A stretch of 58,426 nt of DNA from the IMG/VR virus record IMGVR_UViG_3300046012_001130, positions 1 to 58,426 of that record. One strand, 5' to 3'. Below are positions 615 through 32,413 of the stretch, in pieces. The DNA comes from a virus. Lineage: Duplodnaviria > Caudoviricetes. The position numbers and the translations under genes are program-made. The notes beneath the pieces are model-generated. The model was not told the origin of the DNA. It saw only the letters and a program-made list of their open reading frames with translations, and searched no databases. Each line of letters opens with the position of its first letter. The first letter of the stretch is position 1.

Positions 615-2417
615 TTGGAAGTCTGGGACCTCTCCTGCAAAGATTGGGAACAACGGCTCACCGGTGGCCGTGCCCCTGTCGCGGACCTGCCACTGCTCAA
701 TGTCGTCGAGGCGGACCGCGCGCTCGCCATGTTCGACATGCTTCGGCTGCCCGACGTGCCAGGCACGCCGCTGCTCGCAGACGCCGCCGGCGACTGGTTT
801 CGCCAGTCGATCGTGCGCCCCGCCTTTGGTTCCTGGGATGAAGAGCGCCAGGAGCGCTACATCCGCGAAGTCTTCCTGCTGGTCGGCAAGAAAAATTCGA
901 AGACCTCCTACGGCGCCGGCCTCAGTCTGGTCTGGCTGCTTTACAATCGCCGCCCCAACGCCGAAGGCATCCTCGTCGCGCCGACGCAGGACATTACCGA
1001 CATCGCCTTCAGCCAGGCCGAAGGCATGGTGCGGCTCGATCCGCGCCTCAACCGCAAACGCCTGCGCGTCCAGAACAACCTAAAGCGCATCACCAATCTC
1101 ATTACCGGTGCGACGCTCGAAATTTTGACCTTCGACCCGAAGATTCTCACCGGCCAGAAGCCGGCCTTCTGGCTGCTCGACGAGATCCACGTTCTCTCGC
1201 GCATGTCGAACGCGGCCTCCGCCATCGGCCAGCTTCGCGGCGGCATGATCAGCCAGCCCGAAGCGCTCGGCATCATGATCACCACGCAATCGGACCGACC
1301 GCCCGCCGGCATCTTCAAGACCGAGCTGGTCAAGGCCCGCAACATCCGCGACGGCATCGACCGTTCGACCCGCATGTTGCCGGTGCTCTACGAATTTCCG
1401 CGTGCCATCGCCGCCTCGCGCGAGCTCTGGAGCGATCGCAAGGTCTGGCACATGGTCGTGCCGAACGACGGCCGCTCGATCACCGTCGAGCGGCTGACGC
1501 AGGAATTCCGCACCGCCGAGCAATCCGGCCCCGAGGAATTGAAGCGCTGGGCCTCGCAGCATCTCAATATCGAGATCGGCATCGGCCTCTCGTCGGACCA
1601 TTGGCCGGGCGCCCGCCACTGGGACAATTGCGCGGACGAGACGTTGACGCTTGCAACGCTGATCGAGCGAAGCGAGGTGGTCACAGTCGGCGGCGACGGC
1701 GGCGGCCTCGACGATATGTTGGGCTTCTGCGCCGTCGGCCGCGAGAAGGAAACGCGCCGCTTCCTCGTCGTCGCTCACGCCTGGATCCACCGTTCGGTGC
1801 TCGATCTGCGCAAGGAGATCGCGTCGAAATTCATCGATCTCGAGACCGACGGCGATCTCACCATCGTCGATCGCATGGGCGACGCCTTCGAGGAATTCGC
1901 CGATCTCTGCGAGCTCGTCAAAAATTCCGGCAAGCTCGCCGAGGTGGGGCTTGATACCGCCGCCGTCGGCCTCATTCCGGACGAGCTAGAATCGAGGGGG
2001 ATTACCGTCGAGGAAAAGCTCATCGCCGGCGTGCGGCAGGGCTGGTCGCTGATGGGTGTCATCAAATCGGTCGAGGATCTGCTGGCGGACGGCGTGCTTG
2101 TGCATGGCGGCCAGGCGCTGATGGCCTGGTGCGTCGGCAATGCCCGGATCGAGCAGCGTGGCAATGCGATCCTGATCACCAAGCAGGCTTCTGGTGTCGC
2201 CAAGATTGACGCGCTGATGGCCTTGCTCGACGCCTTCTGGTGTATGTTGAAGAACCCCGAATCGCGCACCGGCCGCAGCGTCTACGAAGAGATCGCCGCC
2301 CGCGCCCAGGCCGCGAAAGCGGCGACGCCTGACAAGCCGCGGGAGCGTGCCATTGCCACACCTCTCGCCTCGAAAGCCGACCCCGACGACGAGCGCTTCT
2401 GGAACGGCGCTGCTTGA
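615..2417 (+). CDS. terL: Terminase large subunit
   Basis: Walker A-like VGKKNSKTS, Walker B LLDEIH, ITTQ coupling motif, nuclease motifs GGDGGGLDD and KIDALMAL; TTG start. Confidence 0.95.
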   Translation: MEVWDLSCKDWEQRLTGGRAPVADLPLLNVVEADRALAMFDMLRLPDVPGTPLLADAAGDWFRQSIVRPAFGSWDEERQERYIREVFLLVGKKNSKTSYGAGLSLVWLLYNRRPNAEGILVAPTQDITDIAFSQAEGMVRLDPRLNRKRLRVQNNLKRITNLITGATLEILTFDPKILTGQKPAFWLLDEIHVLSRMSNAASAIGQLRGGMISQPEALGIMITTQSDRPPAGIFKTELVKARNIRDGIDRSTRMLPVLYEFPRAIAASRELWSDRKVWHMVVPNDGRSITVERLTQEFRTAEQSGPEELKRWASQHLNIEIGIGLSSDHWPGARHWDNCADETLTLATLIERSEVVTVGGDGGGLDDMLGFCAVGREKETRRFLVVAHAWIHRSVLDLRKEIASKFIDLETDGDLTIVDRMGDAFEEFADLCELVKNSGKLAEVGLDTAAVGLIPDELESRGITVEEKLIAGVRQGWSLMGVIKSVEDLLADGVLVHGGQALMAWCVGNARIEQRGNAILITKQASGVAKIDALMALLDAFWCMLKNPESRTGRSVYEEIAARAQAAKAATPDKPRERAIATPLASKADPDDERFWNGAA

Positions 2418-3729
2418 CCGGCTGAAGGGCTTCTTCAACCGCCAGACTCAGAGCTATTGGCCAAATCGCGCCACTCGCGTCGTCTATGTGCAGTCGACAC
2501 TCGCCGGCATCCGCGTCACGCCTGATACGGCGATGCAGCAGGCGGCGGTCTGGGCCTGCGTCAACGTGCTGTCGAAAAGCGTCGCACAACTGCCCTGGCG
2601 CGCGATGCGCGAGGAACAACCGGGCCGCAGCTCCATCGTTCCTGGCACGCTCGACAACCTGCTCAATCATCGGGCCAACGCGGAAATGTCGGCCTTCACC
2701 TTTCGCGAGGTGATGATGGGCCACGCTCTCATTTGGGGGAATGCTTTTGCAGAGATCGAACGCGACGGCGGTGGCCGGCCGATCGCGCTCTGGCCGATCG
2801 AGCCCGACCGTGTCTGGACGAAACGACGCTGGGACACGGGACGCCTCTATTACGAAATCACCAACCAGACGACGGGCATTACCGAGCTCGACTTCATGGA
2901 TGTGTTCCATCTGCATGGGCCAAGCTTCGACGGCATTTCGGGCTATCAGGTGGTCGGCTATGCGGCGCAGTCGATCGGCCTCGCCATGGCGGTCGAGCGG
3001 TTCGGCGCGAGTTTCTTCGGCAATAATGCGCAACTCGGCCAGGTCATTACGAGCGACAAGACCAATCTTTCGCCTGAAGCGCGCGACGCCATGCTGGCGA
3101 GCTTCAACGAAAAGAACCGCGGGCCCGACCAGGCGTTCAAAACGCAATATCTCGACGGCGGCATGAAGGTGACGCCGGTGGGCGTCGAGCCGGATAAGGG
3201 CCAGTTCATCGAGACGCAGCAGCAGATGACAGAAACCATCTGTCGCTGGTTCGGTGTGCCGCCGCACAAAGTCGGCCATCTGCTGCGCTCGACGAACAAC
3301 AACATCGAGGCGCAGGGCATCGAATTCGTCATCGATGGCATTCTGCCCTGGACCGTGCGGTTCGAGCAGGAAGCCGATTACAAGCTCATCAATCCGCGCA
3401 ATCCGCAGGGTTATTATACGCGGATCGACGTGCGCTCGCTGCAGCGCGGCGATCTCGCCGCCCGCGGCGCCTTCTACAAGGATATGTTCGACCGCGGCGT
3501 CTTCTCGCCGAACGACATCCGCGAATCGGAAGGACTGAACAAGATTCCAACGGCCGAAGGTGGCGACAAGCGCTTCGTGCCGCTCAACATGCAAATGCTG
3601 GAGACCGCCGGCGAGGAGCCGCCGCCCGTCGCACCAGAGCCTGACGACGGCACCGCTGACCAGGAAGACGATCCGGCGCCCGAGGGCGGCAGCGAGGAAG
3701 CGACCGGCGACGGTCCGAGCGACGGGTGA
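2347..3729 (+). CDS. Portal protein, HK97 family
   Basis: AVWACVNVLS, WGNAFAEI, ICRWFGVPPHKVG and SPNDIRESEGL motifs; start uncertain (GTG 2347 or near 2404). Confidence 0.95.
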   Translation: MPLPHLSPRKPTPTTSASGTALLDRLKGFFNRQTQSYWPNRATRVVYVQSTLAGIRVTPDTAMQQAAVWACVNVLSKSVAQLPWRAMREEQPGRSSIVPGTLDNLLNHRANAEMSAFTFREVMMGHALIWGNAFAEIERDGGGRPIALWPIEPDRVWTKRRWDTGRLYYEITNQTTGITELDFMDVFHLHGPSFDGISGYQVVGYAAQSIGLAMAVERFGASFFGNNAQLGQVITSDKTNLSPEARDAMLASFNEKNRGPDQAFKTQYLDGGMKVTPVGVEPDKGQFIETQQQMTETICRWFGVPPHKVGHLLRSTNNNIEAQGIEFVIDGILPWTVRFEQEADYKLINPRNPQGYYTRIDVRSLQRGDLAARGAFYKDMFDRGVFSPNDIRESEGLNKIPTAEGGDKRFVPLNMQMLETAGEEPPPVAPEPDDGTADQEDDPAPEGGSEEATGDGPSDG

Positions 3730-3733
3730 GCCC

Positions 3734-4435
3734 ATGACCTATTATTCGATGAAAGCGGCCGGTTCGCGCGGCGAAATCCTGCTCTATCAGGACATCGGAG
3801 AGAGCTTCTGGAGCGAGGGAACGACCGCCGAAGGCTTTGCGAAGGACCTCAAAGCGCTCGGCAAGGTCACCACGATCGATTGCCGCATCAATTCGCCCGG
3901 CGGTAATGTTTTCGAGGGCATGACGATCTATAATCTGCTGGCCGCGCACCAGGCCCGCATCGTCGTGCATGTCGACGGGCTGGCCGCCTCGATCGCTTCC
4001 GTCATCGCCATGGCGGGCGACGAGATCAACATCGCCGACAATGCGATGATGATGATTCACAATGCCTGGGGCATGGGCATTGGCACGGCGCAAGAGATCC
4101 GCAAAACCGCCGACGTGCTCGATTCGATCAGCGCGACGATCGCCGGCACCTATGCCAAGCGTTCGGGCACGAAACTCGACAAAATCGCCGGCATGATGGA
4201 TGCCGAGACCTGGTTCAATGCGCAGGAGGCCAAGGATTGCGGCCTCGCCGACGCGATCGTCGACAACATGAAAATGGCAGCCTGCGCCTTCGATGCGAAG
4301 CGCTTCCGCAATGCGCCGAAGCGGCTCGCCGAAGCGAACGCCGCGCGGCCGCACCGTGATCGTTTTGCAGCGCGTTTTTCCGCCATCGAAACGGCTCGCA
4401 TCAAGGCGCGCCTCGACGCGCAGCGCGCCGCTTAG
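3734..4435 (+). CDS. ClpP-like prohead maturation protease
   Basis: INSPGGNVFEG, GLAASIASVIAMAG, MMIHNAW and ETWFNAQEA motifs; ATG at 3734 just after the portal stop. Confidence 0.95.
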   Translation: MTYYSMKAAGSRGEILLYQDIGESFWSEGTTAEGFAKDLKALGKVTTIDCRINSPGGNVFEGMTIYNLLAAHQARIVVHVDGLAASIASVIAMAGDEINIADNAMMMIHNAWGMGIGTAQEIRKTADVLDSISATIAGTYAKRSGTKLDKIAGMMDAETWFNAQEAKDCGLADAIVDNMKMAACAFDAKRFRNAPKRLAEANAARPHRDRFAARFSAIETARIKARLDAQRAA

Positions 4436-4440
4436 AAATA

Positions 4441-4790
4441 CCCCAGAGGGCGGTCAGGTACGGCTCGCAAGGCTCCCTGCACCGATTCGGGACCGCGCTG
4501 ATCACGCGGTAGGACCATAGGTCGCCGCCCGCCACGAAATTCCACGGGAGCCCTGCGGGAATAGTCGCTATGCGATACGCCCCCGCCGAAAGTGCCGCCT
4601 CTTGAGATGCGCGGACCACACGCTGCCGGCTAACAGCAGGGGCGCCTTTCGAAAAGCCTGATGGTCGGGCGGTTTCTTGGTCCCGCCGAAACATCGGTCC
4701 TGCCGCCGTCCCACAGGCGTCCGGCTAGGAAGGCGTCAGTTACTTTGAATTCCGGCCTCAAGCCGGTCAGCCCGAACGCCCTTGGGCAAG
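4441..4790 (+). ncRNA. Candidate large structured ncRNA (unassigned family)
   Basis: About 400-nt gap with no credible CDS. Nested long-range helices (4442-4452/4777-4786, 4481-4486/4693-4698, 4488-4494/4679-4685, 4513-4521/4657-4666, 4578-4583/4639-4644) plus crossing pairings. Confidence 0.6.
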
Positions 4791-4842
4791 GTGCATGGCG
4801 AACGTCGGACGACGTGCGCATTCCCTCAGATGGAGCCCAAAC

Positions 4843-6339
4843 ATGAAGGCCAGTCCGGTCTCTGTGCAGGCGTTGCTCGTCCTCCTGGCCGGCAGCCCCC
4901 GCATTTATTTCAACGACGGCAATACGCTTCAGTCGCTACGCGACCGGCTCGTCGAGCTCAACGATCGCGCCGTCACCATCCAGGCCGCGGCCGATGCGGC
5001 GAAACGCGACTTCTCGACCGAAGAGGCGACCGAGCTCGACGATATTTTCGCGCAGGTCGAGCAGACCAAGGGTGATATTGCCCGACGCGAACGGATCGAA
5101 GAGAACACCAACGCGCTCGCCGCCGGCGGCGGCCGCCGCACCGAGGCGAACGACCCCGAGGCCGGGCCCGATCCCGCGGCCGCTGCGGCAAGGGAGGCCG
5201 GCGCGGCTGCCAATGCCCGCGCTGCTGCCGCTGTTGGCAACGGGCGGCCCGAACCGCGCCGCACCGTCCCGGCGCAGGCGCGCGGCGGCGATTACCTCCG
5301 CCGCGGCTTCCATAACATGGGCGATTTCGCACGTTGCGTCGTCAATGCCTCGCGCCCTGGCGGCGCCGTCGATCCGCGCCTCATTGTCGATGCGCCGTCG
5401 ACCTTCGGCTCGGAAGGCGTCGGCGCCGACGGCGGCTTCGCCGTGCCGCCCGAATTCCGGACCGCCATCATGGAAAAGGTGCTGGGCGAAACCTCGCTGC
5501 TCGGCCGCACGGATCTGCTCGAAGTCACCGGCAATTCGATCACCATTCCGAAAGACGAGACGACACCCTGGCAATCCTCCGGCGGCATCCTCGCCTCCTG
5601 GGAAGGCGAGGCGCAGCAGCTCACACAGACCAAGCCTCTCCTCGAGGACGTGACGATCCGCCTCAACAAGCTTACGGCGCTCGTCCCCGTCACTTCCGAA
5701 CTCCTGGAAGACGCCGCCGCGCTCGCCTCCTATATCAACCGCAAGGCGCCGGAGAAGATCGATTTCAAGATCAATGCCGCGATCATTGGGGGCACCGGCA
5801 ACGGTCAGCCGCTCGGCATTCTGAAAAGCCCGGCTTTGATCACCGTCGCCGAGGAATCGGCCCAGACCGCGGCGACCGTCAATCACCAGAACATCATCAA
5901 AATGTGGTCGCGGCTTTACGGCCCGGCCCGTTCGAATGCTGTCTGGCTCGTCAATCAGGATGTCGAGCCGCAGCTCAATTCTCTGGGCTTCCCGGCAAGT
6001 GCGACGACGGTGCAATTCCCGGTCTATATTCCGCCCGGCGGCCTTTCCGCCGCGCCCTACGCCAATCTGCTCGGGCGGCCGGTCATCCCGAGTCAGGCTT
6101 GTTCGACGCTCGGGACCGTCGGCGACATCATTCTCACCGATCTCAAGGCCTATCTGGCCGCCCAGAAAGTTGGCGGGATCAGGGCCGAAACGTCGATCCA
6201 TCTTTGGTTCGATTACGATATCACCGCCTTCCGCTTCATCCTGCGCATCGCCGGCCAACCGTGGTGGTCTGCGGCGATCAATCCCTACAACGGCGCCAAT
6301 ACGCTCGGTCACTACGTCGCGCTGGCGACGCGCTCCTGA
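4843..6339 (+). CDS. Major capsid protein, HK97 fold, with N-terminal delta/scaffold region
   Basis: ADGGFAVPPEF, VTSELLEDA and GTGNGQPLGIL motifs; N-terminal coiled coil; GGAG RBS before ATG 4843. Confidence 0.95.
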   Translation: MKASPVSVQALLVLLAGSPRIYFNDGNTLQSLRDRLVELNDRAVTIQAAADAAKRDFSTEEATELDDIFAQVEQTKGDIARRERIEENTNALAAGGGRRTEANDPEAGPDPAAAAAREAGAAANARAAAAVGNGRPEPRRTVPAQARGGDYLRRGFHNMGDFARCVVNASRPGGAVDPRLIVDAPSTFGSEGVGADGGFAVPPEFRTAIMEKVLGETSLLGRTDLLEVTGNSITIPKDETTPWQSSGGILASWEGEAQQLTQTKPLLEDVTIRLNKLTALVPVTSELLEDAAALASYINRKAPEKIDFKINAAIIGGTGNGQPLGILKSPALITVAEESAQTAATVNHQNIIKMWSRLYGPARSNAVWLVNQDVEPQLNSLGFPASATTVQFPVYIPPGGLSAAPYANLLGRPVIPSQACSTLGTVGDIILTDLKAYLAAQKVGGIRAETSIHLWFDYDITAFRFILRIAGQPWWSAAINPYNGANTLGHYVALATRS

Positions 6340-10542: not shown

Positions 10543-10619
10543 TGTGGGGTGGAGCAGTCCGGTAGCTCGCCAGGCTCATAACCTGGAGGTCGCCAGTTCA
10601 AATCTGGCCCCCGCAACCA
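10543..10619 (+). tRNA. tRNA-Met(CAT), initiator (fMet)-like, CCA encoded
   Basis: Full cloverleaf TGTGGGG-TGGAGCAGTCCGGTAGCTCG-CCAGG-CTCATAA-CCTGG-AGGTC-GCCAG-TTCAAAT-CTGGC-CCCCGCA-ACCA; closely resembles bacterial tRNA-fMet. Confidence 0.95.
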
Positions 10620-10651: not shown

Positions 10652-11179
10652 ATGCAGACCGGGATACTTAGTCAAGACAACGGCGCGATCTCGGCTGAGG
10701 ATTGGGCGCAGACCTCCGCTGCCATGCTCCTCATGGCAATAAAAGTCGATCCGGCGTCGCCACGCAGGACGCAGATCGAAATGGCGAAGAATCGCGTTCA
10801 GGCACCGCTTGCGGCCATTTTTTTCAAACATCATGAAGCAGTGCAACGCTTCGAGCGGGAGAAACTCGCTGCCGGCGACCACACTCGGCTGCTGCTCGAC
10901 TTGGACATCGCCGAGCACACCGATGTAGACCAATGCGTGGGCGATGTACTCGCCATCGTCGAGCCGCTGTTGTCCAACCCGCAGTTGTTCAGGGCTGGCG
11001 AAGTAACCTCTGATCACGATCATATCATCGCGCATATCTCCGAAGTCGTTCGCCAGCGGTCGGAGATGGACCTTCGCACCACGCTCTGGATCGAGCGCTC
11101 CTGGCACGCCGATCGGCATCCTGATCACGAACATTCGAAGGCCTTTCGCGCCGCCTCTGCCGCGCCTGACGCCGCCTGA
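10652..11179 (+). CDS. Hypothetical protein
   Basis: AAGGA RBS; 175 aa. Confidence 0.65.
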   Translation: MQTGILSQDNGAISAEDWAQTSAAMLLMAIKVDPASPRRTQIEMAKNRVQAPLAAIFFKHHEAVQRFEREKLAAGDHTRLLLDLDIAEHTDVDQCVGDVLAIVEPLLSNPQLFRAGEVTSDHDHIIAHISEVVRQRSEMDLRTTLWIERSWHADRHPDHEHSKAFRAASAAPDAA

Positions 11180-32252: not shown

Positions 32253-32283
32253 AGCTTCGCCGGCATCCCACAGATGCCGGCGG

Positions 32284-32352
32284 AGATGCCCTCCTTGGGC
32301 GTTTCCTCCCTAGACTTGGGCCCCTGGCGCTTCGGCGCTGGGGGCTCTTTTT
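32284..32352 (+). ncRNA. MmgR/suhB (alpha-r8)-family small RNA
   Basis: Short hairpin, signature TTTCCTCCCT (32302-32311) followed by AGACTTGGGCC, then a terminator with T5. Confidence 0.75.
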
Positions 32353-32413
32353 GCGTTTTAGGGCCGCCGCTAATATGCTCGCTCCGCCCCTTCGGGGGGA
32401 AGACCCCACAGAG

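What the first reader, a model, noticed from the sequence alone, without database searches (positions are those of the whole stretch)
4441..4790. ~345-nt multi-pseudoknot RNA candidate between the prohead protease and capsid genes
Seen: the head operon is otherwise tightly packed, but this ~400-nt gap is almost fully pairable. Closing stem CCCAGAGGGCG/CGCCCTTGGG. Nested stems ACCGAT/ATCGGT, CGGGACC/GGTCCCG, GACCATAGG/CCTGATGGTC and CGCCCC/GGGGCG. Local hairpins at 4492-4510, 4539-4562, 4565-4575, 4595-4614, 4622-4637 and 4752-4766. Three crossing pairings: GGCTCCC 4471-77 with GGGAGCC 4546-52; GCCGCCCG 4524-31 with CGGGCGGT 4666-73; loop CTTGAG 4601-06 with CTCAAG 4757-62. I could not match it by eye to RNase P, tmRNA or group I/II introns. 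Inference: an ornate phage ncRNA (conceptually like GOLLD/ROOL) or a ribozyme/processing element controlling capsid expression or assembly. High GC makes some chance pairings likely.
Basis: partly seen in the sequence, partly recalled or inferred. Interest (0 to 1): 0.8.

Follow-up and report, generated by a model that had tools for sequence, protein, structure and literature searches.

The report
New tRNA-linked phage RNA family
The 400-base gap before the capsid gene is not one giant folded RNA but a patchwork, whose first 100 bases belong to an apparently undescribed, strongly conserved small structured RNA found in over a hundred phage sequences, sometimes right beside an initiator-like tRNA gene.

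Summary
As a whole it folds no better than shuffles (z -0.01), and none of about 185 related head loci shares its first 311 nt. It has three parts.

(1) 4437-4536 belongs to a structured RNA family that no Rfam 15 model matches. The fold is a 7-bp closing stem around four hairpins. There are 98 hits (87 distinct rows), 95% of pair cells are paired, and 20 of 28 pairs show double-sided changes (0/500 shuffles). Conserved U-G pairs make it strand-specific. It sits mostly in sense inside operons of diverse phages. It occurred in 8 of 151 genomes of the Bradyrhizobium order and in 0 of 150 other genomes of the class sample. A tRNA-Met(CAT) gene abuts it in 13 of 98 loci, and it is locally homologous to that tRNA.

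(2) 4537-4746 is an orphan spacer with no support of any kind.

(3) 4747-4842 is a conserved leader (GCCCTTGGGCAAGG) that elsewhere precedes major capsid and tail-tube genes.

Only hairpins 4492-4510 and 4752-4766 survive. Function is inferred, not shown.

The parts
3560..4435 (+). Prohead protease gene (ClpP family), upstream neighbour; stop TAG at 4433-4435
   Evidence: Pfam CLP_protease 2.3e-33
4437..4447 (+). Conserved single-stranded 5' flank of the RNA element (AAUACCCCAGA; family box GAAUACCC plus purines)
   Evidence: ATACCC (at most 1 mismatch) starts 6-18 nt (mostly 8-12) before the closing stem in 81 of 88 distinct family contexts
4448..4454 (+). P1, 5' strand (GGGCGGU) of the 7-bp closing stem
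   Evidence: Pairs with 4524-4530. Perfect in all 8 first members. In the 98-hit alignment, P1 (helices 1 and 2 of that call) has 5 of 7 pairs with double-sided changes, the first pair is G-C in 87/87 rows and the last is U-G in 82/87
4455..4479 (+). Hairpin A: CAGG/CCUG outer stem, UAC/C internal loop, GGCU/GGCU inner stem, CGCAA loop. It is the most conserved block and is locally similar to the D-loop to anticodon-stem part of the window's own tRNA-Met
   Evidence: Compensatory A-U/U-A swap in the outer stem (UA 79, AU 8). Inner pair GC 68, GU 11, AU 5, UA 3. Local alignment of 4450-4475 to the tRNA at 10543-10619: 21 of 24 aligned positions identical with a 2-nt gap, score 26 against 13.9 +/- 2.1 in shuffles, 0/2000
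4482..4490 (+). Hairpin B (CCG-AUU-CGG), short and variable
   Evidence: All 3 pairs show double-sided changes across the family
4492..4510 (+).
   Evidence: All 6 pairs show double-sided changes; 79.8% of cells paired, because lengths differ. Part of the MFE fold
4513..4523 (+). Hairpin D (GACC-AUA-GGUC), abutting the P1 3' strand with no linker
   Evidence: All 4 pairs show double-sided changes, e.g. GC 45, AU 20, CG 13, UA 8 at one pair; 99.1% of cells paired
4524..4530 (+). P1, 3' strand (GCCGCCC), followed by GCCA
   Evidence: NCCA directly follows P1 in 12 of 88 contexts
4537..4746 (+). Orphan spacer: no homolog, no coding signal, no excess structure
   Evidence: z 0.06. Against 2.1 Mb of held loci, one 30-nt blastn match (L192, E 0.02) and only short tblastx fragments (call-wide E 5e-4 to 0.013); none is homology over a stretch. 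No match in GenBank phages. No second copy of the element with filters off
4747..4842 (+). Conserved capsid-gene leader: hairpin 4752-4766, GCCC box 4770-4773, motif GCCCTTGGGCAAGG 4778-4791, hairpin 4798-4819, SD GGAG 4832-4835
   Evidence: 78% identical over 92 nt to L067. The motif occurs between protease and capsid in 22 of 104 non-redundant related loci. A hairpin precedes it in 21 of 22. Elsewhere it precedes capsid and tail-tube genes
4843..6339 (+). HK97-type major capsid gene with N-terminal delta-like domain
   Evidence: Pfam Phage_capsid 5.3e-42. The start is placed by alignment with relatives
10543..10619 (+). Initiator-like tRNA-Met(CAT) gene, 6 kb downstream; same type as the tRNAs that abut the element in other phages
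   Evidence: ARAGORN and Rfam. Loop CUCAUAA and 3' end GCAACCA

Best explanation
SHOWN. The protease-capsid gap is a composite. Compared with its closest relatives, which have gaps of 67-107 nt, this phage carries a 311-nt insertion (4436-4746) directly after the protease stop codon and in front of an otherwise ordinary capsid leader (4747-4842).

The first 100 nt of the insertion (4437-4536) are one copy of a widespread small structured RNA that no Rfam 15 model matches. It has a 7-bp closing stem that always opens with G-C and ends with U-G. That stem encloses a nearly invariant bipartite hairpin A, two variable hairpins (B and C) and a short hairpin D stacked on the closing stem. A conserved single-stranded GAAUACCC box precedes it. 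The RNA strand is the one that codes the neighbouring genes. The family sits mostly in sense between genes of many phage types (Mu-like, P2-like, lambda-like, HK97-like). Among the genomes sampled it was found only in the Bradyrhizobium/Mesorhizobium order. In 13 of 98 loci it directly abuts an initiator-like tRNA-Met gene, and part of its sequence is homologous to that tRNA. The remaining 210 nt of the insertion have no detectable feature.

INFERRED (about 35%). The element is a tRNA(fMet)-derived, tRNA-like module. The closing stem plus hairpin D would form an 11-12-bp acceptor/T-type minihelix. It would be co-transcribed with the operon and cut out by tRNA-type processing: RNase P at the first G of the closing stem, and/or RNase E in the AU-rich 5' box. 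In this phage that would sever the terminase-portal-protease message from the capsid message and release a compact stable RNA. What the released RNA does in trans, if anything, is unknown.
For: Insertion:
- L002 has a 67-nt gap, L108 69 nt and L109 107 nt, each with the same leader motif.
- Only 9 of 140 related loci have gaps above 200 nt.
- In L006 a tRNA-Asn gene sits at exactly this spot.

Family:
- Model R1 hits the window at 96.7 bits.
- 18 members give 96.4% paired cells.
- 98 hits (87 distinct rows) give 95.0% paired, 20/28 pairs with double-sided changes in 421 cells, and a covariation score of 0.426. Shuffles give 0.122 (0/500 reach the observed value) and slid registers give at most 0.066.
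- U-G is kept in 82/87 and 85/87 rows.
- The window copy alone folds into the consensus as both MFE and centroid.

Context and distribution:
- Flanking coding strand, upstream: same 60, opposite 9, unclear 18, too short 1 of 88. Downstream: same 44, opposite 8, unclear 33, too short 3 of 88.
- Diverse neighbours.
- Genomes with a match: 3/151, 1/151, 8/151 and 1/151, the last being the centre genome only.

tRNA link:
- tRNA adjacency. All adjacent tRNAs are CAT with loop CUCAUAA or a near variant.
- Local homology to the tRNA, 0/2000 shuffles.
- tRNA-like geometry: a 7-bp stem opening with G-C in 87/87 rows, hairpin D abutting with no linker, and NCCA after the stem in 12/88 contexts including the window.
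Against: - No expression or end-mapping data exist. No RNA run was listed.
- Thermodynamic stability of the element alone is not significant (z -0.98).
- It is not detected as a tRNA by ARAGORN or by the Rfam tRNA model. It has no T-loop and no anticodon arm, and CCA is missing in 76 of 88 contexts.
- The strong conservation of the 5' box and of hairpin A is not needed for, and not explained by, simple RNase P or RNase E processing. It points rather to a specific partner.
- 80 of the 98 loci were collected with an exact pattern covering 22 nt of hairpin A, so that hairpin's invariance in the large alignment is largely by construction. Only the 10 new genome-derived members are free of this. 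Three of them vary a little in hairpin A (L201, L203, L206).
- The alignments were fitted to the model's structure, which inflates paired percentages.
- The element is absent from all close relatives, so it is not required for capsid expression.
Confidence: 0.5

Rival explanations
1. One reading: the whole stretch of about 345 nt (4441-4790) is one ornate multi-pseudoknot RNA, closed by 4442-52 pairing with 4777-86.
For: All listed complementary strings exist. The MFE of the whole gap uses the closing stem.
Against: Whole-gap z is -0.01 and stem counts are at chance. No relative shares 4537-4746, and none of 185 related head loci shares 4436-4746. The 3' half of the closing stem lies in a leader motif conserved in phages that have no 5' partner. 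Four of the eight proposed long-range pairings use bases that are paired otherwise in a fold with strong covariation.
Confidence: 0.03
2. The 100-nt element is a trans-acting phage RNA with a specific host partner. Examples would be a mimic or decoy of initiator tRNA that titrates a host protein (a tRNA-targeting defence nuclease, a modification enzyme or an initiation factor), or another host-specific effector RNA. It is merely carried in operons as a passenger and released from them.
For: - Near-invariant hairpin A and 5' box, including in genome-derived members.
- Found only in one bacterial order among the genomes sampled, despite many phage types. This fits a host-specific partner.
- Homology of hairpin A to the D-loop/anticodon-stem part of initiator-like tRNA.
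- Co-location with such tRNA genes.
Against: No partner has been identified, and no conserved neighbouring protein gene exists. There is no anticodon loop or acceptor end that known tRNA-binding proteins would need. There are no expression data.
Confidence: 0.2
3. The element is a new class of self-cleaving ribozyme that cuts phage polycistronic or tRNA-containing transcripts.
For: The distribution resembles that of small ribozymes: promiscuous intergenic positions, mostly in sense, in phage operons. Core nucleotides are invariant while peripheral hairpins vary in length. It directly abuts tRNA genes. One locus, L282, has two copies about 300 nt apart.
Against: No Rfam ribozyme family matches, even at E of 10 or less. 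No tertiary pairing or pseudoknot was detected. The invariant block is a hairpin rather than a junction core. Cleavage cannot be tested here.
Confidence: 0.1
4. The element acts in cis on transcription or translation of the downstream gene. It could be a processive antitermination RNA, a 5' stabiliser or a translational operator.
For: Mostly sense orientation. The downstream start codon is often only 16-60 nt away.
Against: In this window the next start codon is 306 nt away. In six loci (L191, L193, L194, L197) or similar cases the next gene downstream is a tRNA. Downstream genes are of every kind. The element lies in the middle of operons rather than at their start.
Confidence: 0.08
5. The window copy is a functionless passenger: a scar of illegitimate recombination that brought in 311 nt of foreign intergenic DNA.
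For: The insertion is unique among relatives. 210 of its 311 nt have no feature.
Against: The copy is intact and is the best-scoring family member (96.7 bits). All 28 consensus pairs form in its MFE fold.
Confidence: 0.09

Closest known systems
tRNA(fMet) and tRNA-like RNAs (tmRNA tRNA-like domain, bacterial Y-RNA-like YrlA; the latter two recalled, not tested)
   Same: A 7-bp terminal stem opening with G-C and stacked on a short hairpin. A purine follows the stem in 74% of contexts. NCCA is enriched after the stem (12/88). A 21-of-24-nt stretch is homologous to the D-loop/D-stem/anticodon-stem part of initiator-like tRNA. The element lies 2-100 nt from such tRNA genes on the same strand.
   Different: No T-loop, no anticodon arm and no conserved CCA. 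Five helices instead of four. Not recognised by ARAGORN or the Rfam tRNA/tmRNA models. Has a conserved 5' single-stranded box.
Mu-gpT-DE RNA motif (Rfam; its description is recalled)
   Same: The commonest single context of the family is the Mu-like head module downstream of gpT. Mu gp36 is the next gene in 11 of 58 downstream ORFs, and FluMu_N or gpT lies upstream in 9 of 58.
   Different: No Rfam family, Mu-gpT-DE included, matched the element. The searches were the window at E up to 10, the Mesorhizobium plasmid locus at E up to 10, and 11 further member loci at E up to 0.1. Five of those 11 are Mu-like. Most family members lie in other contexts.
GOLLD / ROOL large ornate phage-associated RNAs
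   Same: Phage or prophage borne, function unknown, strong covariation. Frequent neighbourhood to tRNA genes (recalled for GOLLD and ROOL).
   Different: The closing-stem span is 55-153 nt (median 83), against several hundred nt. A simple nested junction. No Rfam match.
Small self-cleaving ribozymes in phage operons, including HDV-like 'theta' ribozymes next to phage tRNAs (recalled)
   Same: Promiscuous sense-strand intergenic positions in phages. Direct adjacency to tRNA genes. Conserved core with variable peripheral stems.
   Different: No match to any ribozyme family in Rfam. No pseudoknot found. Cleavage untested.
Intercistronic mRNA processing and stabilising elements (RNase P or RNase E sites in operons; the RNase P-processed C4 RNA of phages P1/P7; recalled)
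   Same: A structured element inside a polycistronic unit, placed before highly expressed genes.
   Different: Those elements are not conserved sequence families spread across unrelated phages.

Membership tests
tRNA | Cloverleaf recognised by tRNA detectors (ARAGORN, Rfam RF00005) | tested here: not met
   ARAGORN finds only the tRNA at 10543-10619. The Rfam scan of 4300-4950 at E up to 10 gives no tRNA hit
tRNA | 7-bp acceptor stem with G1-C72, stacked on a T-type stem | tested here: met
   7-bp P1 with its first pair G-C in 87/87 rows. The 4-bp hairpin D abuts it with no linker
tRNA | T-loop, anticodon arm, 3' NCCA | tested here: not met
   The hairpin D loop is 3-6 nt. The loops of hairpins B and C vary. 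NCCA follows P1 in only 12 of 88 contexts
tmRNA | tRNA-like domain plus tag reading frame, detected by ARAGORN or Rfam | tested here: not met
GOLLD / ROOL | Match to the Rfam covariance model; size of several hundred nt | tested here: not met
   No hit at the gathering score or at E up to 10. The conserved unit is about 100 nt
Group I / group II intron | Match to Rfam intron models | tested here: not met
Known self-cleaving ribozyme classes (hammerhead, twister, twister-sister, pistol, hatchet, HDV-like) | Match to the Rfam models | tested here: not met
   Searches (E up to 10; E up to 0.1) over 13 member loci
Self-cleaving ribozyme (any, including a new class) | Site-specific self-scission | not testable with these tools
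   Needs an in-vitro transcript and a cleavage assay
Mu-gpT-DE motif | Match to the Rfam model | tested here: not met
   No hit in five Mu-like member loci (L195, L199, L202, L204, L205) at E up to 0.1
Mu-gpT-DE motif | Location downstream of Mu-like gpT genes (recalled definition) | tested here: inconclusive
   True for a minority: gp36 downstream in 11/58 ORFs, gpT or FluMu_N upstream in 9/58. Not true for the window
Structured RNA family defined here (model R1) | Full-length, high-scoring match to the covariance model, with all helices formed | tested here: met
   96.7 bits, model positions 1-98. The MFE fold equals the consensus fold
Protein-coding gene | Codon-position GC bias, Pfam or translated similarity | tested here: not met
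Repeat / MITE of the same genome | More than one copy in the record | tested here: not met
   One copy only. No weaker copy with filters off

The most novel reading that the evidence does not exclude
The 100-nt element is the first-noticed member of a new class of initiator-tRNA-derived phage RNAs with an activity of its own. That activity would be either self-cleavage or guided cleavage that punctuates phage transcripts, or molecular mimicry of initiator tRNA that disarms a host factor specific to the Bradyrhizobium/Mesorhizobium order. The neighbouring GCCCTTGGGCAAGG leader is a second, independent and undescribed signal that marks the most abundantly needed virion genes (major capsid, tail tube) for high expression.
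Probability: 0.2. Interest if true: 0.85.

Novelty: new variant of a known kind. Interest (0 to 1): 0.62.

Why it matters
Well-supported new bacterial or phage RNA families with this much covariation and no Rfam match are not common. This one has over a hundred members, mostly prophage or metagenomic phage sequences. It is mobile between unrelated phage types, was found in one host order only among the genomes sampled, and is linked by position and by sequence to phage-borne initiator-like tRNA genes. That link gives a concrete handle on two open questions: why phages carry tRNA genes, and what the many orphan structured phage RNAs do.

The second element found on the way is a leader shared by major capsid and tail-tube genes. 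It could explain how these phages boost their most abundant structural proteins. It may also be useful as an expression signal in alphaproteobacteria.

For the scan itself, the case shows that high-GC 'pairability' seen by eye was not evidence of structure. Comparative data nevertheless rescued a smaller, real RNA inside the flagged region.

Tried and rejected
- Coding potential of the gap. There is no GC3 periodicity and no Pfam hit for ORFs 4401-4694(-), 4661-4846(+) or 4630-4821(-). tblastx against related loci gives only chance-level fragments. Rejected.
- Known RNA families. Rfam at gathering scores and at E up to 10 on the window, and on 12 other member loci, found nothing but tRNAs.
- Repeat or MITE. 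There is a single copy in the record and no degenerate second copy.
- Homologs of the middle 210 nt. None in 2.1 Mb of held loci, in GenBank phages or in plasmids.
- Cultured phage records. No member was found with either variant of the element. Among plasmids, only NZ_AP023261 matched.
- Promoter for the element. There is no sigma-70-like site and no conserved -35-like position upstream. Where a tRNA precedes, the 5' box directly follows its CCA end.
- Extra tertiary helices or pseudoknots. A search over well-occupied alignment columns found none.
- Expression. No RNA holder was listed for 3600-6300.
- Earlier notes of this scan. Nothing by place or by sequence.
- Literature. One listing for 'Mu-gpT-DE' and two broader searches were read as listings and abstracts. 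Passages of two 2026 preprints were read by term search. None describes this RNA or the leader. Supplements were not consulted. The 2017 paper that defined Mu-gpT-DE is not in the library, so I recall it only.
Genomes were reached instead through loci of related prophages.
- H-type pseudoknot for the leader motif. Rejected on geometry, because both linkers would be 0 nt. The two small helices are alternatives.
Full report
ANATOMY OF THE REGION

The window is a 58,426-bp IMG/VR virus record. Its left end carries a head module:
- large terminase, 615-2417;
- portal, 2347-3729;
- ClpP-type prohead protease, 3560-4435;
- HK97-type capsid gene.

The long frame that holds the capsid gene opens at 4795. 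Relatives align from the ATG at 4843, which has GGAG at 4832-4835. The non-coding gap is therefore 4436-4842, 407 nt.

CHECK OF THE OBSERVATION

The claim that the gap is unusually pairable fails.
- The plus-strand MFE is -163.7 kcal/mol, against -163.66 +/- 6.3 for 100 dinucleotide shuffles (z -0.01).
- The minus strand gives z -1.0.
- Perfect stems of 6 bp or more in 4441-4790 number 25, against 18.8 +/- 4.5 in shuffles (29 of 300 shuffles reach 25). Stems of 7 bp or more number 3, against 5.1.

Rfam 15 gives nothing in the gap, either at gathering scores or at E up to 10. The gap does not look coding:
- no third-position GC excess (0.63/0.67/0.62, against about 0.8 in the flanking genes);
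- no Pfam hit for three gap ORFs;
- no translated similarity.

THE GAP IS MOSTLY AN INSERTION

I collected relatives of the capsid gene from three collections: IMG/VR (80 loci), one genome per species (25 loci) and metagenomes (80 loci). Both the protease and the capsid gene could be placed in 140 loci, which give 104 non-redundant gaps.

Typical gaps are about 0-140 nt. Only 9 of the 140 exceed 200 nt. The closest relatives with both genes have short gaps: L002 67 nt, L108 69 nt and L109 107 nt.

By blastn, no locus shares gap positions 1-311. Only the last 95 nt or so are shared. The window therefore carries a 311-nt insertion (4436-4746) between the protease stop codon and an otherwise ordinary leader.

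The same spot holds other insertions in other relatives:
- a tRNA-Asn gene in L006;
- small or large inserts, not studied further, in L003, L010, L040 and L107.

THE CONSERVED LEADER (4747-4842)

Twenty-two of the 104 non-redundant gaps carry CCTTGGGCAAG, allowing one mismatch. In 20 of these the motif lies 11-63 nt after the protease stop. In the window it lies 344 nt after the stop, and in L067 263 nt. A GC-rich hairpin of varying sequence precedes the motif in 21 of the 22.

The motif is conserved in phages that have no 5' partner for that stem, so the closing stem is not supported.

A 14-mer will also occur by chance in a collection of that size, and I cannot give the expectation. Among the 120:
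- 74 distinct downstream ORFs with a Shine-Dalgarno sequence and a start codon within 130 nt were kept;
- 38 stretches had none;
- 8 were duplicates.

Pfam hits among the 74:
- major capsid families: 28 (Phage_capsid 25, Phage_cap_E 2, Mu gpT 1);
- tail-tube families: at least 12 (Phage_tail_2 7, Phage_tube_2 5, plus three single hits to other tube families);
- tail sheath: 2;
- DnaB-like 4 and minor-tail 4, which are cases where the 14-mer lies in or at the start of a gene, judged from the 5-nt distance to the called start.

A second GCCC box lies 4-24 nt upstream of the motif in 45 of 59 leader-type contexts, against 13 of 52 other contexts. In the window's MFE fold this box (4770-4773) pairs with GGGC of the motif. 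One related locus, L055, has AGGC in the motif and GCCT upstream, which would be a compensatory change.

Whether the leader acts as RNA (a stability or translation signal) or as DNA (a promoter element) is open. Some loci have a canonical terminator just upstream, for example L337, L413 and L417. That would fit a promoter. The variable spacing of the two boxes fits an RNA helix.

THE REAL STRUCTURED RNA (4437-4536)

How the family was found:
- A distant blastn of the insertion against plasmids hit an unannotated 363-nt gap in a 56.7-kb circular Mesorhizobium record with phage-like genes. The match lies directly after a tRNA-Met gene.
- Exact-pattern scans of IMG/VR and a search of five prophage-bearing genomes gave more copies.
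- Eight sequences share a perfect 7-bp closing stem whose sequence differs between them.
- A covariance model (R1) then found one copy each in 3 of 151, 1 of 151 and 8 of 151 genomes sampled from the families and the order of Bradyrhizobium sp. YR681 and Mesorhizobium loti. The centre genome is counted in the first and third samples. It found none in 150 other genomes of the class sample.
- Ten of the first 18 members have CUGG...CCAG where the window has CAGG...CCUG. A pattern for that variant hit 113 IMG/VR stretches. I ran the model on 80 of these (L207-L286). L287-L319 were stored but not analysed.

Structure statistics:

| Alignment | Cells paired | Pairs with double-sided changes | Source |
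|---|---|---|---|
| 18 members | 96.4% | 18 of 28 | |
| 98 hits (87 distinct rows) | 95.0% | 20 of 28, in 421 cells | |

For the 98-hit alignment the covariation score is 0.426. Column-shuffled controls give 0.122 +/- 0.006 (0 of 500 reach the observed value). Registers slid by 1-3 columns give at most 0.066.

Examples:
- closing-stem pairs CG 42 / GC 36 / AU 6, and GC 47 / CG 37;
- hairpin A outer pair UA 79 / AU 8;
- a hairpin D pair GC 45 / AU 20 / CG 13 / UA 8.

Two U-G pairs are kept in 82 and 85 of the 87 rows. The complementary strand could not form them, so the folded strand is the one given.

The window copy is the top-scoring member (96.7 bits). On its own it folds into exactly the consensus, as both MFE and centroid. 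Its stability is not significantly above shuffles (z -0.98).

Caveats:
- The alignments are fitted to the model's structure.
- 80 of the 98 loci were found with a pattern that fixes 22 nt of hairpin A, so that hairpin's invariance in the large set is by construction. In the members found by the model in genomes it is still nearly invariant, with small changes in L201, L203 and L206.
- The evidence for P1 and for hairpins B, C and D does not depend on the pattern.

The supported fold is:
- P1: 4448-4454 with 4524-4530;
- hairpin A: 4455-4479;
- hairpin B: 4482-4490;
- hairpin C: 4492-4510;
- hairpin D: 4513-4523.

Hairpin 4492-4510 is correct.

They have no homolog anywhere I could search, no excess stability (z 0.06) and no second copy of the element.

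WHAT THE ELEMENT MIGHT DO

These facts are shown.

(a) Orientation. Where the flanking coding strand could be called, it is the element's strand. Upstream: same 60, opposite 9, with 18 unclear and 1 too short. Downstream: same 44, opposite 8, with 33 unclear and 3 too short.

(b) Neighbours are of every kind. Mu gp36 lies downstream in 11 of 58 scanned ORFs. FluMu_N or gpT lies upstream in 9 of 58. The rest include tail sheath/tube, lambda-type terminase/gpW/portal, DNA methylases, primase-like and HTH proteins, and many ORFs without a Pfam match. There is no constant protein partner.

(c) 5' flank. A GAAUACCC box lies just before the closing stem in 81 of 88 contexts, with no conserved -35-like position further upstream. 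Where a tRNA precedes the element, the box follows the tRNA's CCA end directly.

(d) tRNA adjacency. In 13 of 98 loci a tRNA-Met(CAT) gene lies within 100 nt on the same strand. Ten are upstream and three downstream. No other tRNA type is adjacent. The Phe and Ala genes found lie more than 1 kb away. These tRNAs have the loop CUCAUAA or a near variant, and 11 of the 13 end in GCAACCA. I recognise both as initiator-like from general knowledge.

(e) Homology to the tRNA. Window 4450-4475 aligns to positions 12-35 of the window's own tRNA-Met (10543-10619). Twenty-one of 24 aligned positions are identical, with one 2-nt gap. The score is 26, against 13.9 +/- 2.1 for shuffles (0 of 2000 reach it).

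(f) Geometry. The closing stem is 7 bp and opens with G-C in 87 of 87 rows. Hairpin D (4 bp) abuts it without a linker. The base after the stem is never T. NCCA follows in 12 of 88 contexts, the window included. A T-rich patch lies 7-9 nt further on.

From these I infer, at about 35%, a tRNA(fMet)-derived, tRNA-like module. It would be co-transcribed with phage operons and excised by tRNA-type processing. In this phage that would separate the capsid message from the upstream message.

The high conservation of hairpin A and of the 5' box, together with the occurrence in one host order only among the genomes sampled, argue that a specific host partner exists. This keeps a trans-acting mimic or decoy RNA (about 20%) and a new ribozyme (about 10%) as live rivals. 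None of these can be decided without wet-lab work.

COMPARISON WITH KNOWN FAMILIES AND NOVELTY

No Rfam 15 family matches the window copy or the 12 other member loci tested. The Mu-gpT-DE motif is included in that. Its recalled definition, downstream of Mu gpT, overlaps the family's commonest context.

ARAGORN and the tRNA/tmRNA models do not recognise the element. GenBank phage records hold no copy. Three literature searches and term searches in two recent preprints found no description.

I therefore regard it as an undescribed family of tRNA-related structured phage RNA: a new variant of a known kind rather than a new category. The leader motif also appears undescribed, with the same limits on what I could search.

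VERDICT

The 345-nt multi-pseudoknot RNA is not supported. Inside it lie one solid new 100-nt RNA family member and the front half of a conserved capsid/tail-tube leader, separated by 210 nt of featureless sequence. Function is open. Interest is moderate to high because of the strength of the covariation, the size and mobility of the family, and its tie to phage initiator-like tRNA genes.

Noticed in passing
window 4778-4791 and loci L320-L439: GCCCTTGGGCAAGG, usually with a GCCC box 4-24 nt upstream and a hairpin before it, lies about 19-54 nt in front of the start codons of major capsid genes (28 of 74 downstream ORFs), tail-tube genes (at least 12) and sheath genes (2) in many IMG/VR contigs. 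It looks like a shared high-expression leader or promoter element, and no Rfam model matches it.
   Followed up: partly
window 10543-10619: An initiator-like tRNA-Met(CAT) gene (loop CUCAUAA, 3' end GCAACCA, U1-A72 instead of a mismatch). It is of the same type as the tRNAs that abut the RNA element in other phages.
   Followed up: partly
window 32281-32360: An Rfam match to the mmgR/suhB sRNA family (61.8 bits, above the gathering score) inside a record classed as viral. Together with the tRNA at 10.5 kb, it suggests that part of the record is host (alphaproteobacterial) chromosome, or that the phage carries a host-type sRNA.
   Followed up: no
L006:2665-2740: A related phage carries a tRNA-Asn gene directly after the protease stop, at the same insertion point as the window's element. 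L003 and L006 also have a small basic ORF there, L040 a small Cys-rich ORF, and L010 an insert of about 830 nt (the ORFs read by eye only).
   Followed up: partly
L282:2696-2790 and 3089-3184: Two copies of the RNA element about 300 nt apart on the same strand in one viral contig.
   Followed up: no
L206 (about 55 nt upstream of the element at 1501-1634, minus strand): The first 15 nt or so of the element (purine run, closing-stem 5' strand and start of hairpin A) are repeated about 55 nt upstream. This is a possible trace of how the element inserts or recombines.
   Followed up: no
L090:7229-7240: The capsid-type leader (motif, hairpin, same Shine-Dalgarno context) occurs a second time in one prophage, about 2.9 kb downstream of the capsid gene and in front of another gene.
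   Followed up: no
L194 (just upstream of the element at 10906-10999, minus strand): A T-arm-like sequence (GGGGGTTCGAATCCCC) lies directly upstream of the element, but ARAGORN does not call it a tRNA. It may be a tRNA fragment or a second tRNA-like piece.
   Followed up: no
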